A stretch of DNA of 64,000 nt from Escherichia phage teqhad (NC_054933.1); one strand, 5' to 3'. Shown: positions 3,207-12,406, counted from the stretch's first letter. Made by a program: numbers and translations. The notes: generated from the sequence alone by a model not told the origin.

Positions 3207-3506
3207 TTATTTTTCCTCTGGTTGGAACACTGCACGACAAGCCCACATACTGGCTTCTTTGAGTTTCGTTTTAGCAATAGTTAACTGATCGAGGCTTTCG
3301 GCATAATTCTTCGCGAATTCACAATCTTCACAATTATCTAGTGCTTCCCAGAATTCATCATACAAAGCATCAAAGATAAGTCCTAAACGAACTTCAGCGT
3401 CTTTGATAGCATTCACTTTACCGATTTTCTCTTCAGTATGTGGTTTATAACCCTTAATATCTTCAATCATATTTGACTTCCTCACCAGTACATAAATCAT
3501 ATTCAA
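3207..3506 (-). CDS. hypothetical protein
   Basis: ORF track; CEDCEF motif; true start possibly the internal MIEDIKG. Confidence 0.4.
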
Positions 3507-3684
3507 CTAAACGAATAGGTTCATGAATGCCATATCCCTGAACAGAAATTTCTGTCGTAGGATAAATTCCACTAATATCACCCATATTCCACGCTTCATT
3601 AAATTGCTGTTCGCCTGAATTACTAAACCATTCTGCGAAAGCATTTAGCACATCTTTAGAACCTTCAATAATTATCTTTGCCAT
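3463..3684 (-). CDS. hypothetical protein (73 aa)
   Basis: ORF track; stop/start coupling with the GrcA-like gene. Confidence 0.45.
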   Translation of the reverse strand: MAKIIIEGSKDVLNAFAEWFSNSGEQQFNEAWNMGDISGIYPTTEISVQGYGIHEPIRLVEYDLCTGEEVKYD

Positions 3685-4046
3685 TACAAACTCTCGGTAA
3701 AGGTACGAGCGATAACGTCGCGCTGCTGTTCCGGAGTCAGAGAGTTAAAGCGAACTGCATAACCGGATACACGGATGGTCAGCTGCGGATATTTTTCCGG
3801 ATGCTTAACTGCATCTTCCAGAGTTTCACGACGCAGAACGTTAACGTTCAGGTGTTGACCACCTTCAATTTTAACTGTAGGCTGTGGCTCAATTTCAATT
3901 TCACGGGCATGCAAACCGTAGAAAATTTCTGGGTCTACAAAAGAGTCCTCTTTAAAGGTTTTAGAGACAATAATTCGTGCTTGAATACCATCTTCAAAAT
4001 AAATAGTACCTTTATGTGTGCCTTCAAGAATTTGATATGCTTTCAT
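3684..4046 (-). CDS. autonomous glycyl-radical cofactor (GrcA/YfiD-like; T4 Y06I-like)
   Basis: C-terminal 60 aa [60 protein letters not shown] is essentially identical to E. coli GrcA as recalled, including the radical Gly in RVSGYAVRF. Confidence 0.9.
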
Positions 4047-4053
4047 ATAAACC

Positions 4054-4380
4054 TCAATTAGAAAATAAATTTATCCAAGATTGTTCTTTAATTAAAAATG
4101 GCTCAGAATCATATGCCATTAAACTTTGGGTGATTAGTCCTTTAAAAGGTCCATCAATAAATTCCATGGTAAAATATGGAATTTTATTCATTAACTGTGC
4201 GTTAGGAGCAGTGCACAAAACTCTGCATCCTTTGAATACACCTTTTTGTAATTTGTATTGCTTGGGATAAAATTCGCTTAAAATGTTGTTATTTGCCAAA
4301 ATTTCAAAATGATTTACCAATTTATTTTTAATAGTTTTTGGCGAAAAATAGAGATATTCGAAAAGCTGTGTGTCTGTCAT
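4054..4380 (-). CDS. hypothetical protein (start set at MTDTQLFEY)
   Basis: ORF track 4054..4434; internal ATG overlaps the stop of the upstream gene (TAATG). Confidence 0.4.
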
Positions 4381-4967
4381 TATTGCATTCCGATTACGAA
4401 AAACTGTGGACGAGTAATACCACCAATGCAACATTTACTATTACAGCAGTAGTGTACAGTGTCAATATGGACGCTATAAATCTTATCCATATCAGGAGAT
4501 TTGACAGGCTCATCAATTATATACAAAATTCGCGAAAGCGATAAACCTCTGAACTTGCTTCCTTTATTACCAATAAAACTGCGTACAGAATCAGTAAATA
4601 AACGAAAACGTATATCATCATTAGAATAACGCGAAAATTCCTTTTTAATGTTATTTGCAGAAATTTTAGCGTAAGCTGAAGTATTAGAAAGAACAATAAC
4701 TGTTCCGCCATCATACAGCCAATTAGCAGCAAAGTTAGTCACAGCAATTGATTTACCAGATTGACGTCCACCATCTATACGAAGTGTGCAGTACTGTTTA
4801 AGTAATTCTTCAAATGGCGGGATATATTCGTTTTTACAAATTTCTTCTACTCTAGCATCAGAATGGTGTGTAAAAGCATTCATCAGGGATAGATAAGGAC
4901 CAGTTAAAAATGTTCTCATTTTATTCTCTCTAAATTTGGGCCATTCCATGGCGCATGAATTGTCCAT
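4380..4967 (-). CDS. hypothetical P-loop-like protein
   Basis: GGRQSGKS Walker-A-like motif and ILYIIDEP Walker-B-like motif; probable true start at MRTFLTG. Confidence 0.5.
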   Translation of the reverse strand: MDNSCAMEWPKFRENKMRTFLTGPYLSLMNAFTHHSDARVEEICKNEYIPPFEELLKQYCTLRIDGGRQSGKSIAVTNFAANWLYDGGTVIVLSNTSAYAKISANNIKKEFSRYSNDDIRFRLFTDSVRSFIGNKGSKFRGLSLSRILYIIDEPVKSPDMDKIYSVHIDTVHYCCNSKCCIGGITRPQFFVIGMQ

Positions 4968-11458: not shown

Positions 11459-11534
11459 TGGTCGAGGCAGTAGGGATCGAACCTACGACCCAGGACTTAG
11501 AAGGTCCTTGCTCTTCCTTCTGAGCTATGCCCCG
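11459..11534 (-). tRNA. tRNA-Arg (anticodon UCU)
   Basis: Cloverleaf read by eye on the minus strand; T-arm gtagg-gatcgaa-cctac; anticodon loop CUUCUAA; encoded CCA. Confidence 0.7.
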
Positions 11535-11538
11535 TAAT

Positions 11539-11614
11539 TGGGGTGACCGATGGGAGTCGAACCCATGACTACGAGAATCACAATCTCGAGTTCTACCAAC
11601 TGAACTACGGCCAC
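11539..11614 (-). tRNA. tRNA-His (anticodon GUG), tentative
   Basis: T-arm atggg-agtcgaa-cccat; anticodon loop UUGUGAU; discriminator C73. Confidence 0.5.
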
Positions 11615-11728
11615 ATTAATACCTACTCCAACAATCAAGATGTCTTCACACGAAATTAAGAGAAGAGTGATCAGTTCAACCCCTATAATCGCGTCAAGTA
11701 GATATTAATGTGACAGTTGTCACAAATT

Positions 11729-11803
11729 TGGCGGACGTGATAGGATTCGAACCTATAACCAATCGCTTAACAGGCGATCGCTCTGCCATTGAGCTACACA
11801 TCC
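11729..11803 (-). tRNA. tRNA-Asn (anticodon GUU), tentative
   Basis: T-arm atagg-attcgaa-cctat; anticodon loop CUGUUAA. Confidence 0.55.
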
Positions 11804-11807
11804 AAAT

Positions 11808-11894
11808 TGGTGGGGAGTGGTGGAGTCGAACCACCCGAGTCGCAATGACAATGGATTTACAGTCCACACCGCTACCTCTACGGGATAACTCCCC
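11808..11894 (-). tRNA. tRNA-Tyr (anticodon GUA), class II with long variable arm
   Basis: Anticodon loop CUGUAAA; long variable arm; overall pattern parallels E. coli tRNA-Tyr. Confidence 0.6.
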
Positions 11895-11907
11895 TTAATT
11901 CTTAATT

Positions 11908-11982
11908 TGGTGGCCCTGGGTGGAATTGAACCACCATCTGGCGATTATGAGTCGCTTGCTTGAACCTTCCAGCTACAGGGCC
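11908..11982 (-). tRNA. tRNA-Ile (anticodon CAU, presumably lysidine-modified) or tRNA-Met
   Basis: Anticodon loop CUCAUAA; acceptor ggccctg/cagggcc; T4 tRNA-Ile also carries CAU. Confidence 0.7.
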
Positions 11983-11983
11983 T

Positions 11984-12059
11984 TGGTGCTGATTGACGGA
12001 ATCGAACCGCCGACCTTCTCATTACAAGTGAGTTGCTCTACCTACTGAGCTAAATCAGC
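11984..12059 (-). tRNA. tRNA-Thr (anticodon UGU)
   Basis: Anticodon loop CUUGUAA; T-arm ggcgg-uucgauu-ccguc. Confidence 0.75.
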
Positions 12060-12064
12060 AAAAC

Positions 12065-12154
12065 TGGCGGAGGCGATAGGATTTGAACCTATGAGTCGCC
12101 GGAGCGACTGCCGGTTTTCAAGACCGGTGCATTAAACCACTCTGCCACGCCTCC
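12065..12154 (-). tRNA. tRNA-Ser (anticodon UGA), class II
   Basis: Reverse complement reads GGAGGCGUGGCAGAGUGG...CUUGAAA...GGUUCAAAUCC...CGCCUCCGCCA, matching T4 tRNA-Ser as recalled. Confidence 0.85.
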
Positions 12155-12156
12155 AG

Positions 12157-12230
12157 TCTCCATACAAGGATTTGAACCTTGGACCTCCTGATCCCAAATC
12201 AGGCGCTCTACCAAACTGAGCTACACGGAG
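12157..12230 (-). tRNA. tRNA-Pro (anticodon UGG), no encoded CCA, abuts tRNA-Ser
   Basis: Anticodon loop UUUGGGA; T-arm caagg-atttgaa-ccttg; 3' end 2-3 nt from the tRNA-Ser 5' end. Confidence 0.75.
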
Positions 12231-12240
12231 TAAATTAAAT

Positions 12241-12314
<74 letters not shown>

Positions 12315-12319
12315 AAATT

Positions 12320-12406
12320 TGGTGCGAGAAGTGGGACTCGAACCCACAAGGAAATCATTCCGCAGCATTTTAAGTGCTGTGCCTTTACCAATTTGACCAT
12401 TCTCGC
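12320..12406 (-). tRNA. tRNA-Leu (anticodon UAA), class II
   Basis: Reverse complement reads GCGAGAAUGGUCAAAUUGGUAAAGGCACAGCACUUAAAAUGCUGCGG...GGUUCGAGUCCCACUUCUCGCACCA. Confidence 0.85.

What the first reader, a model, noticed from the sequence alone, without database searches (positions are those of the whole stretch)
3684..4046. Host-derived glycyl-radical cofactor whose C-terminus is near-identical to E. coli GrcA
The last 60 aa appear essentially identical to host GrcA/YfiD while the N-terminus is divergent. This implies recent host capture or strong constraint from interaction with host pyruvate formate-lyase, and presumably repairs oxygen-damaged PFL during infection. A T4 homolog, Y06I, is known; the finding here is the degree of identity.
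Basis: partly seen in the sequence, partly recalled or inferred. Interest (0 to 1): 0.4.

Follow-up and report, generated by a model that had tools for sequence, protein, structure and literature searches.

The report
T4 GrcA gene patched with host DNA
This is the known T4-type phage gene vs.6 (Y06I), a spare part for the host enzyme pyruvate formate-lyase, and its conserved second half is a 172-base stretch of DNA copied exactly from the E. coli grcA gene, a host-to-phage overwrite that has recurred in T-even phages of different host genera.

Summary
Window 3684-4046 (minus strand) encodes a 120-aa protein that is 100% identical to T4 Vs.6/Y06I. Its last 60 residues are identical to E. coli GrcA; the first 60 are about 27% identical.

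The identity is in the DNA as well. Window 3697-3868 (172 nt) is an exact substring of E. coli grcA, with every synonymous site matching (dS = 0). Other bacterial grcA copies that encode the same or nearly the same peptide differ at 2-42 sites (median 23). Phage copies outside Tevenvirinae differ from every bacterial copy at 23 or more sites. GC is 0.49 in the tract and 0.35 in the N-terminal part. The last four codons are phage-type. This tract is the window's only megablast match to 5,426 E. coli chromosomes.

So peptide constraint is real but does not explain the identity. The gene is a mosaic: an old, diverged phage grcA whose conserved half was recently overwritten by host DNA. The overwriting is recurrent and host-specific. 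Jiaodavirus contigs with near-identical N-halves carry 155-nt tracts identical to Klebsiella or to Raoultella grcA.

The gene and its biochemistry are already known. I found no paper describing the host-DNA patch. The closest parallel is psbA exchange in cyanophages. Interest is moderate.

The parts
3684..4046 (-). CDS vs.6 / Y06I, the phage autonomous glycyl-radical cofactor (GrcA homologue): 120 aa plus a TAA stop
   Evidence: ORF list. Pfam Gly_radical 2.8e-18. Best NCBIfam match is TIGR04365 spare_glycyl at 153 bits, below the 170-bit cutoff. Matches 6OWR GrcA at 8.6e-42. 100% aa identity to T4, and annotated vs.6 in related phages.
3697..3868 (-). Host-derived tract: 172 nt (gene nt 179-350, codons 60-117) identical base for base to E. 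coli grcA
   Evidence: Exact substring of L001 grcA; adding one base on either side breaks it. Alignments. About half of 5,426 E. coli genomes are 100% identical and the rest differ by 1-2 nt. GC is 0.494, against 0.348 in the N-terminal part and 0.359 in the whole window.
3869..4046 (-). Phage-type N-terminal half (codons 1-59 plus the first base of codon 60). It is AT-rich and has no DNA similarity to host grcA; protein identity is about 27%.
   Evidence: blastn in distant mode aligns only query nt 179-363 to E. coli. GC3 is 0.21 here and 0.45 in the C-half. HMMER still aligns residues 22-60 to GrcA, so this half is a diverged homologue, not unrelated sequence.
3684..3696 (-). Phage-type tail: the third base of codon 117, codons 118-120 and the stop. 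It has 4 synonymous differences from E. coli (ACC GAG AGT TTG versus ACT GAA AGC CTG). It overlaps the ribosome-binding region and the TAATG start overlap of the downstream gene.
   Evidence: The 3' end of the host tract varies between close relatives: T4 keeps ACT GAA, which gives 178 identical nt. The Jiaodavirus annotation places an RBS at this spot.
3762..3764 (-). Codon GGT for Gly95 in the RVSGY motif, the predicted radical-bearing glycine. It aligns with the glycine of the same motif in the solved GrcA and PflB chains; from memory these are GrcA Gly102 and PflB Gly734.
   Evidence: Sequence and alignment to 6OWR and 1H16/1CM5. Gly734 is named as the radical site of E. coli PFL in PMC8683613.
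4052..4055 (-). GAGG Shine-Dalgarno-like element 5 nt upstream of the ATG, overlapping the TGA stop of the upstream ORF (4054-4434)
   Evidence: Read from the sequence. This is an inference from the consensus only.
3463..3684 (-). Downstream gene (73 aa, phrog_1986, function unknown). Its ATG overlaps the vs.6 stop (TAATG).
   Evidence: The same arrangement is seen in KMB40, T4, JK45 and Jiaodavirus.

Best explanation
The gene is the T-even phage vs.6 (Y06I). It encodes a small protein that carries the C-terminal glycyl-radical loop of pyruvate formate-lyase (PFL). The host PFL-activating enzyme puts the radical on it (Gly95 here). The activated protein then docks onto PFL whose own loop has been cut off by oxygen, and activity is restored. 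This was shown biochemically for the identical T4 protein. Whether it helps the phage in oxygen-exposed, fermenting hosts is inferred. At the DNA level the gene is a mosaic. An old, AT-rich, strongly diverged phage grcA supplies codons 1-59 and the last four codons. Codons 60-117 are a patch of E. coli chromosomal grcA. My inference is that the patch was copied in by homologous recombination between the phage copy and host DNA during infection, as gene conversion or natural marker rescue. This region can recombine because the peptide is so constrained that phage and host DNA stay about 80-90% identical there. The tract stops where homology stops: at the domain boundary on the 5' side and just before the stop codon on the 3' side. 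The process recurs. E. coli T-evens carry E. coli tracts. Some Klebsiella T-evens (Jiaodavirus) carry tracts identical to Klebsiella or Raoultella grcA, and others carry tracts 1-10 nt away from a Klebsiella-type allele. After a first conversion the homology is nearly perfect, which should make later conversions easier. That would explain why phage copies fall into two classes, 0-10 or at least 23 differences from a host allele.
For: Shown here.
(1) The 172-nt tract is an exact match to E. coli grcA, with 0 of about 42 synonymous sites changed.
(2) Constraint alone does not produce this. 156 other bacterial grcA copies, whose C-terminal peptide is the same or nearly the same, differ from E. 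coli at 2-42 sites (median 23), and only a sister Escherichia sp. is within 5. Slopekvirus, Pseudotevenvirus and phage ENT3 copies have an identical peptide over the compared codons 61-116 but dS of 1.1-1.5 against E. coli. Krischvirus, T5-like and jumbo-phage copies are saturated.
(3) Both junctions are sharp. There are 13 differences in the 25 nt upstream of the tract and 4 in the last 13 nt.
(4) Composition steps at the junction: GC 0.49 versus 0.35, and GC3 0.45 versus 0.21, where the host gene has 0.43.
(5) The direction is host to phage. Among bacteria the two halves of grcA diverge together (for example L004 0.044/0.049 and L250 0.78/0.57), and the tract has host composition.
(6) The two halves give discordant histories among phages. 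Window versus L103: N-half dS 0.39, C-half 0. L103 versus JK45: 0 and 0.157. L191 versus KLB8: 0 and 0.31. L191 versus L186: 0.053 and 0.346. Fisher p values are 4e-5, 0.027, 5e-4 and 0.008.
(7) The tracts are host-specific. Jiaodavirus contig L191 has a 155-nt exact match to L250, whose GrcA protein is GRCA_KLEP7 of Klebsiella. Jiaodavirus contig L186 has a 155-nt exact match to L198, whose GrcA is that of Raoultella ornithinolytica. The phage and bacterial contexts of these contigs were confirmed by colinearity. The cultured K. pneumoniae phage KPV15 is 157/158 identical to the Klebsiella allele, and E. coli phages are 85-89% identical to it.
(8) Of 96 phage copies, 16 lie within 0-10 nt of a bacterial allele. 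All 12 of those with a taxonomic assignment, or shown colinear with a Jiaodavirus, belong to Tevenvirinae; the other four are unclassified IMG/VR contigs with Tequatrovirus-type N-halves. The remaining 80 lie at 23 or more.
(9) The tract is the only megablast match of the 64-kb window to any of 5,426 E. coli chromosomes.
Function: Y06I and YfiD are activated by PFL-AE and restore O2-cleaved PFL (Wagner et al. 2001, as summarised in PMC8683613).
Against: The recombination mechanism is inferred from sequence patterns only. Nothing here shows when or how the exchange happens, or whether it is neutral or selected. Phage-to-phage recombination could spread one E. coli tract among co-infecting T-evens, so the number of independent host-to-phage events in E. 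coli phages is uncertain; the Klebsiella and Raoultella cases are the clean evidence for recurrence. Host tracking is imperfect. Tequatroviruses isolated on Yersinia and Hafnia carry the E. coli-type tract. Raoultella phages Ra_O-1 and Ra_O-2 are only 94.6% identical to the Raoultella allele tested. KLB8's donor was not found; its nearest allele is 10 nt away. JK45 and Mosigvirus EP32a differ from E. coli at 6-7 sites, mostly GC-to-AT changes. These could reflect an older tract decaying, a different Escherichia donor, or a partial conversion; I could not tell which. The protein scores below the NCBIfam GrcA equivalog cutoff (153 versus 170 bits). No in vivo role in infection is known.
Confidence: 0.85

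Rival explanations
1. Pure purifying selection. The C-terminal peptide must fit host PFL and PFL-AE, so it cannot change, and shared codon preference keeps the DNA the same without any recent exchange.
For: The 60-residue peptide is the same or nearly the same in 80 Enterobacterales and Pasteurellaceae genomes and in several phage genera. grcA is a highly expressed gene (my own knowledge), so codon bias could lower dS.
Against: Copies with the same or nearly the same peptide differ at 15-44 of about 174 nt between bacterial genera, and by dS 1.1-1.5 in Slopekvirus and Pseudotevenvirus. The phage's own codon usage is AT-rich: GC3 is 0.21 in the N-half and 0.08-0.15 in jumbo-phage copies. Identity tracks particular host alleles of E. 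coli, Klebsiella and Raoultella. The identity ends abruptly four codons before the stop, although the peptide stays identical there.
Confidence: 0.02
2. A single whole-gene capture from E. coli by an ancestor of T-even phages. The N-half then diverged fast because it is weakly constrained, and the C-half simply had no time to change.
For: Both halves are homologous to GrcA. vs.6 is conserved in all T4-like genomes compared in PMC1524935.
Against: Synonymous sites in the N-half show no detectable DNA similarity to the host, while the C-half has dS = 0; one divergence time cannot give both. Phages with dS = 0 in the N-half differ by dS 0.16-0.31 in the C-half, and the reverse also occurs. Jiaodaviruses with about 98-99% identical N-halves carry tracts from different bacterial genera.
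Confidence: 0.03
3. Transfer in the opposite direction: the phage tract was copied into the bacterial grcA genes.
For: Phage-to-host exchange of gene segments has been reported for psbA (PMC1484495).
Against: T-even phages are strictly lytic (my own knowledge). The tract has host GC3, not phage GC3. In bacteria the C-half diverges in step with the N-half and in the expected order: Escherichia sp., then Citrobacter, then Klebsiella and Salmonella, then Yersinia. All 5,426 E. coli genomes carry the tract at their chromosomal grcA gene, annotated next to ung and eamB in the loci inspected.
Confidence: 0.02
4. Artefact: host DNA contamination or chimeric assembly at a shared conserved region.
For: Two of the key Jiaodavirus examples (L191, L186) are metagenome assemblies.
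Against: The tract is flanked on both sides by phage sequence within one ORF. A chimera would switch context once and not return. The same mosaic is present in hundreds of independently sequenced isolates, including T2 and T4, and in the isolate KPV15. L191 and L186 are colinear with a cultured Jiaodavirus for kilobases on both sides.
Confidence: 0.01
5. The conversion is real, but it is maintained by positive selection for host-identical nucleotide or RNA sequence (for example host-optimised codons for fast translation, or shared post-transcriptional control of grcA mRNA) rather than by neutral recurrent recombination.
For: Host-like tracts are fixed in about 640 Tequatrovirus and Mosigvirus records, which are 95-100% identical to this one. 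The two amino-acid differences between the E. coli and Klebsiella peptides (LEDAVK versus LLDAVE) travel with the tract.
Against: Slopekvirus phages of Klebsiella keep the E. coli-type peptide and unconverted DNA, so host matching is not required.
Confidence: 0.25

Closest known systems
Bacteriophage T4 Y06I (gene vs.6), autonomous glycyl-radical cofactor
   Same: The protein is 100% identical. The genome position is the same, between the lysozyme/denV region and regB-vs-tk. The same host-identical DNA tract is present; in T4 it is 178 nt long. The published biochemistry is activation by PFL-AE and reconstitution of O2-cleaved PFL (PMC8683613).
   Different: There are 2 synonymous differences in the N-half, and 2 in the tail where T4 keeps the host bases. 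That Y06I is vs.6 is from annotation in related records and from my memory of UniProt naming; it was not independently verified.
E. coli GrcA (YfiD), the 'spare part' protein for pyruvate formate-lyase (PDB 6OWR; NCBIfam TIGR04365)
   Same: The C-terminal 60 residues are identical, including the RVSGY radical glycine. 172 nt of DNA are identical. The whole length is alignable.
   Different: The N-terminal 60 residues are about 27% identical, and the protein is 7 residues shorter. The score is below the curated equivalog cutoff (153 versus 170 bits). It is encoded by a lytic phage within a run of same-strand small ORFs whose stop and start codons overlap, not as the host's separate grcA gene between ung and eamB.
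Intragenic host-phage recombination in cyanophage psbA/psbD (Zeidner et al. 2005; Sullivan et al. 2006, PMC1484495)
   Same: A host-derived metabolic gene in T4-like phages, with patchy GC along the gene, segments that match host lineages, and discordant histories within one gene.
   Different: Here the tract is 100% identical to a named host species. It has the same boundaries in every case, at the edge of the homology, and it runs from host to phage only. It occurs in the classical enterobacterial T-evens. The psbA signals are statistical mosaics across a wholly conserved gene, and exchange in both directions is reported.
Marker rescue and insertion/substitution recombination between T4 and cloned homologous DNA in the host cell (standard T4 genetics; my own knowledge)
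   Same: Cytosine-containing DNA resident in the infected cell recombines with the phage genome across a few hundred bases of homology and replaces the phage allele.
   Different: That is a laboratory procedure with perfect homology on plasmids. Here the donor would be the chromosome, the homology is imperfect before the first event, and the outcome is fixed in natural populations. It was not tested here.

Membership tests
GrcA/YfiD autonomous glycyl-radical cofactor (TIGR04365 spare_glycyl; InterPro IPR011140) | A small stand-alone protein (about 120-130 aa) whose C-terminus is a Gly_radical domain (PF01228) | tested here: met
   120 aa. PF01228 matches at 2.8e-18 with 66.8 bits (cutoff 22.2), residues 61-101.
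GrcA/YfiD autonomous glycyl-radical cofactor (TIGR04365 spare_glycyl; InterPro IPR011140) | A conserved radical glycine in the RVSGYAV motif, aligned with the glycine of the same motif in GrcA and PflB (from memory GrcA Gly102; PflB Gly734 per PMC8683613) | tested here: met
   Gly95 lies in RVSGYAVRF. The alignment is identical to 6OWR, and to 1H16/1CM5 residues 697-759.
GrcA/YfiD autonomous glycyl-radical cofactor (TIGR04365 spare_glycyl; InterPro IPR011140) | A full-length score above the curated equivalog cutoff | tested here: not met
   153.3 bits against a cutoff of 170; E. coli GrcA scores 233.9. The shortfall comes from the diverged N-terminal half. TIGR04365 is still the best-scoring family, aligned over residues 20-120.
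GrcA/YfiD autonomous glycyl-radical cofactor (TIGR04365 spare_glycyl; InterPro IPR011140) | Radical installed by PFL-activating enzyme, and restoration of activity to O2-cleaved PFL | not testable with these tools
   Reported for T4 Y06I and E. coli YfiD by Wagner et al. 2001, as summarised in PMC8683613. The window protein is identical to the T4 protein.
Host-phage mosaic auxiliary gene (intragenic recombination, psbA type) | A segment with host-level nucleotide identity, flanked by phage-type sequence inside one ORF | tested here: met
   172/172 nt match, with 13 differences in the 25 nt upstream and 4 in the 13 nt downstream.
Host-phage mosaic auxiliary gene (intragenic recombination, psbA type) | A step in base composition at the junction | tested here: met
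   GC 0.494 versus 0.348, and GC3 0.45 versus 0.21.
Host-phage mosaic auxiliary gene (intragenic recombination, psbA type) | Discordant evolutionary histories of the two segments | tested here: met
   The dS contrasts run in both directions, with Fisher p from 4e-5 to 0.027. No formal recombination software (3SEQ, GARD) was run.
Host-phage mosaic auxiliary gene (intragenic recombination, psbA type) | Independent events with different donor lineages | tested here: met
   E. coli, Klebsiella (GRCA_KLEP7 protein) and Raoultella ornithinolytica tracts occur in closely related phages.

The most novel reading that the evidence does not exclude
In Tevenvirinae, vs.6 is a self-renewing recombination site with the host chromosome. 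Extreme peptide constraint keeps enough homology for host grcA DNA to overwrite the phage copy again and again, and each overwrite raises the homology for the next one. This would be a bistable 'lock-in', consistent with the observed split into 0-10 versus 23 or more differences. The tract would then be a natural, datable record of the bacterial lineage a strictly lytic phage has recently replicated in. It could serve as a host tag for uncultured T4-like phages, and as a way to measure how often chromosomal DNA enters lytic phage genomes in nature.
Probability: 0.45. Interest if true: 0.65.

Novelty: new member of a known kind. Interest (0 to 1): 0.5.

Why it matters
The gene and its biochemistry are not new. 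Three things are worth knowing.

First, T4 and T2, the classical T-even phages, carry a 172-178-nt stretch that is base-for-base E. coli chromosomal DNA. Their Klebsiella-infecting relatives carry the equivalent stretch from Klebsiella or Raoultella. This is direct sequence evidence that strictly lytic phages which destroy the host chromosome still take up chromosomal DNA by homology, repeatedly and recently.

Second, it gives a simple, testable system for measuring that flow. One can put synonymous watermarks in host grcA or in phage vs.6 and ask which phage recombination and nuclease genes are needed.

Third, there are practical consequences. The tract may indicate the recent host genus of uncultured T4-like phages. 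Also, grcA has been proposed as a qPCR marker for Straboviridae (PMC12845203), although its conserved half is identical to the host gene in many phages, so host DNA may amplify.

Tried and rejected
(1) Convergent codon usage or constraint was rejected by the bacterial and phage controls.

(2) pflB as donor was rejected. E. coli pflB is only about 80% identical to the tract (H225).

(3) The genome-contig scan returned only 80 species and missed K. pneumoniae. Klebsiella phages therefore first appeared to have no close donor, at 17-19 differences. A degenerate-pattern scan of metagenome contigs solved this, and an exact-protein lookup named the donors.

(4) The IMG/VR scan gave few T4-type copies, so a population-scale analysis of Tequatrovirus was not possible. 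I used identity bands from BLAST instead.

(5) I tested whether phage variants of the E. coli tract match E. coli alleles. The only hit is one site: the K-12-type CGC in L098, which is Yersinia phage ZN18. That is too weak to count as an independent event.

(6) Literature searches for a prior description of the DNA-level patch found none. Miller et al. 2003 (PMC150520) and Bowman et al. 2019 (PMC6754787) were not available, and I did not attempt to open Wagner et al. 2001, so prior mention cannot be excluded.

(7) The promoter and terminator scan around the gene gave no more sites than shuffled sequence does. No claim is made about transcription.

(8) Structure prediction was not run. The C-half is identical to a solved protein, and the question was evolutionary.

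Full report
WHAT IS THERE

Window 3684-4046 holds a 120-codon ORF on the minus strand. Its stop codon overlaps the start of the next gene (TAATG), and a GAGG lies 5 nt upstream of its ATG. The product matches Pfam Gly_radical at 2.8e-18. It matches the solved E. coli GrcA structure 6OWR at 8.6e-42 over residues 22-120, and the C-terminus of pyruvate formate-lyase, residues 697-759. The gene is 100% identical in DNA to Escherichia phage teqhal and is present in 755 phage records. Several of these annotate it as vs.6 / autonomous glycyl radical cofactor. The protein is 100% identical to that of phage T4. The gene order around it (e, denV..., vs.6..., regB, vs, tk) is that of a Tequatrovirus. So this is the T4 Y06I/vs.6 orthologue itself.

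THE OBSERVATION

Residues 61-120 are identical to E. coli GrcA 68-127 (60/60). The first 60 residues are about 27% identical.

blastn against 5,426 complete E. coli genomes aligns only gene nt 179-363, at 97.8%. Base by base, gene nt 179-350 (window 3697-3868, 172 nt) is an exact substring of E. coli grcA, and one more base on either side breaks the identity. By the Nei-Gojobori method, the C-half has 0 synonymous differences in about 42 synonymous sites. The four differences from E. coli all lie in the last four sense codons, and all are synonymous. They sit where the ribosome-binding region and start codon of the downstream gene overlap. Upstream of the tract there are 13 differences in 25 nt. 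GC is 0.494 in the tract, 0.348 in the N-terminal part and 0.359 in the whole window. GC3 is 0.45 in the C-half and 0.21 in the N-half; the same segment of the host gene has 0.43. About half of the E. coli genomes are 100% identical over the tract, and the rest differ by 1-2 nt; K-12 has CGC where the phage has CGT. Megablast of the whole 64-kb window against those genomes finds no other chromosomal match.

IS PEPTIDE CONSTRAINT ENOUGH?

No. The C-terminal peptide is the same or nearly the same in 80 Enterobacterales and Pasteurellaceae species, yet their DNA differs from the phage tract at 15-44 positions. Even a sister Escherichia species differs at 4. Over 156 other bacterial copies the tract differs from E. 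coli at 2-42 positions, with a median of 23. Phage copies in Slopekvirus, Pseudotevenvirus and phage ENT3 encode the same peptide over the compared codons 61-116 but have dS of 1.1-1.5 against E. coli. Krischvirus, T5-like, jumbo and Aeromonas phage copies are saturated. Identity at every synonymous site therefore means shared DNA ancestry that is very recent, after E. coli split from its closest sampled sister species.

DIRECTION OF TRANSFER

Among bacteria the two halves of grcA diverge together and in the expected order of relatedness. The tract has host composition, not phage composition. All E. coli genomes carry it at their chromosomal grcA gene, which lies next to ung and eamB in the loci inspected. 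The transfer ran from host to phage.

ONE EVENT OR MANY?

The two halves of the phage gene have discordant histories.

- The window gene and IMG/VR contig L103 differ by dS 0.39 in the N-half and 0 in the C-half.
- L103 and Shigella phage JK45 differ by dS 0 in the N-half and 0.157 in the C-half (Fisher p = 4e-5 and 0.027).

Klebsiella T-evens (Jiaodavirus) at first seemed to have no close donor. The genome contigs sample lacked K. pneumoniae, so I scanned metagenome contigs with a degenerate pattern for the Klebsiella-type peptide.

- Jiaodavirus contig L191 carries a tract identical over 155 nt to bacterial contig L250. That tract includes about 17 sites that differ from E. coli.
- Jiaodavirus contig L186 carries a tract identical over 155 nt to a different bacterial contig, L198.
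- An exact-sequence lookup names the L250-type GrcA protein as GRCA_KLEP7 of Klebsiella, and the L198-type as Raoultella ornithinolytica GrcA.
- L191 and L186 are colinear with the cultured Jiaodavirus KLB8 for kilobases on both sides. L250 and L198 are colinear with bacterial ung-grcA-eamB loci.
- L191 versus KLB8 gives N-half dS 0 and C-half 0.31. L191 versus L186 gives 0.053 and 0.346 (p = 5e-4 and 0.008).
- The cultured K. pneumoniae phage KPV15 is 157/158 identical to the Klebsiella allele. 112 further phage records, Klebsiella phages in every listed case, are 95-99% identical to it. The E. coli phages listed are 85-89% identical.

At least three donors (E. coli, Klebsiella and Raoultella) have therefore overwritten the same segment in closely related phages. 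Of 96 phage copies examined, 16 lie within 0-10 nt of some bacterial allele. Twelve of these are Tequatrovirus, Mosigvirus or Jiaodavirus by taxonomy or colinearity; the other four are unclassified IMG/VR contigs with Tequatrovirus-type N-halves. The remaining 80 lie at 23 or more, and none falls between.

HOW IT MOST LIKELY WORKS

Function. YfiD and Y06I receive a glycyl radical from the PFL-activating enzyme and then bind PFL that oxygen has cleaved at Gly734, which restores activity. This comes from Wagner et al. 2001 as summarised in PMC8683613. The window protein is identical to Y06I, so this biochemistry transfers directly. The benefit to the phage is inferred: it would keep fermentative acetyl-CoA and ATP supply going in oxygen-exposed hosts.

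Evolutionary mechanism. This is inferred from the sequence anatomy. The C-half is the only part of the phage gene where phage and host DNA remain about 80-90% identical. Unconverted phage copies share exact runs of about 20-35 nt with host copies. Host DNA present in the infected cell can therefore pair with the phage copy. A heteroduplex or copy-choice event would replace everything between the outermost matched stretches. That fits the constant 5' junction at the domain boundary. It also fits the 3' junctions, which vary within the last roughly 25 nt: the 3' end of the host tract differs between the window gene, T4, L100, L103 and L191. After a first conversion the homology is nearly perfect, so further conversions should be easier. 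That would produce the two-class distribution. Why only Tevenvirinae show it is unknown. These phages degrade the host chromosome into fragments and rely heavily on recombination (my own knowledge), but that link was not tested.

WHAT DOES NOT FIT NEATLY

- JK45 and Mosigvirus EP32a differ from E. coli at 6-7 sites, mostly GC-to-AT changes. I cannot tell decay of an older tract from another Escherichia donor or a partial conversion.
- KLB8's donor is unsampled; the nearest allele is 10 nt away.
- Tequatroviruses isolated on Yersinia and Hafnia carry the E. coli-type tract. Two Raoultella phages are only 94.6% identical to the Raoultella allele tested. The tract therefore reflects evolutionary rather than laboratory host.
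- Spread of one tract by phage-phage recombination cannot be separated from repeated host-to-phage events within E. coli phages.

COMPARISON WITH WHAT IS KNOWN

The gene is T4 vs.6/Y06I and belongs functionally with GrcA. It nevertheless scores 153 bits against the 170-bit equivalog cutoff of TIGR04365, because of its diverged N-half. vs.6 was listed among the ORFs conserved in all T4-like genomes compared by Nolan et al. 2006, where a role in nucleotide metabolism was suggested (PMC1524935). The evolutionary pattern most resembles intragenic recombination of psbA/psbD between cyanophages and their hosts (PMC1484495). Here it is cleaner: exact identity to named host species, fixed boundaries, and one direction only. 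Seven literature searches found no description of the DNA-level patch. Two key subscription papers were not held and I did not try to open the original biochemistry paper, so priority cannot be asserted.

VERDICT

The gene and its function are already known. The host-tracking gene conversion appears to be a new example of a known kind of host-phage exchange. Interest 0.5.

Noticed in passing
window 11459-12406 (minus strand): A cluster of 10 tRNA genes: Arg-tct, His, Asn, Tyr, Met, Thr, Ser, Pro, Gly and Leu. From memory this set differs from that of T4. The tRNA-Tyr stretch (11805-11898) is 89.5% identical to a tRNA-Tyr on the listed example of 219 E. coli 'plasmid' records that match the window at 80-90%; that record is about 100 kb and may be a phage-plasmid.
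   Followed up: no
L091 (Salmonella jumbo phage PHA46) 295-657; L094 (Escherichia phage UE-S1) 298-657; L097 (Aeromonas phage AsFcp_4) 301-684: In these distant phages the vs.6/GrcA homologue sits between or next to nrdD and nrdG, the anaerobic ribonucleotide reductase and its activase, which form the other phage glycyl-radical system. This linkage may indicate co-expression under anoxia, or a wider 'spare part' role. In the Tequatrovirus KMB40 no nrdD or nrdG is annotated within about 4 kb either side of vs.6.
   Followed up: no
window 3684-4046 (protein): The phage protein scores 153.3 bits on NCBIfam TIGR04365 (GrcA equivalog), below the 170-bit cutoff. This may be why the phage records name it inconsistently: hypothetical protein, pyruvate formate-lyase, ribonucleotide reductase subunit and acetyltransferase-related protein all occur.
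   Followed up: partly
literature: PMC12845203: grcA was chosen as the conserved marker gene for PCR/qPCR typing of Straboviridae. The conserved half of that gene is DNA-identical to the E. coli host gene in Tequatrovirus, so primers placed there could amplify host DNA. I did not check the primer positions.
   Followed up: no
L033 (genome contigs record 'Vagococcus sp. WN89Y') and L024 ('Klebsiella sp. WOUb02 plasmid unnamed4'): A genome labelled Vagococcus (Firmicutes) carries an Enterobacteriaceae-type grcA, 91% identical in protein to E. coli GrcA, which suggests contamination or mislabelling. A 275-kb record labelled plasmid carries what is elsewhere a chromosomal grcA locus.
   Followed up: no
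L126 and L166-L176 (IMG/VR 'viral' contigs): One IMG/VR contig (L126, 19 kb) carries a bacterial-type grcA (MITGIQ... N-terminus). A group of short contigs carry full-length PflB/TdcE-like C-termini with host-like GC3. These are probably bacterial or prophage-flank sequence classed as viral.
   Followed up: no
L095, L096 and L139-L165 (Tequintavirus, T5-like phages): T5-like phages of E. coli and Salmonella also encode a GrcA-like protein of about 122 aa, about 52% identical to the T4 type. In IrisVonRoten it lies next to a tRNA gene. Their C-halves are 38-41 nt from every bacterial allele, so they show no sign of host conversion.
   Followed up: partly
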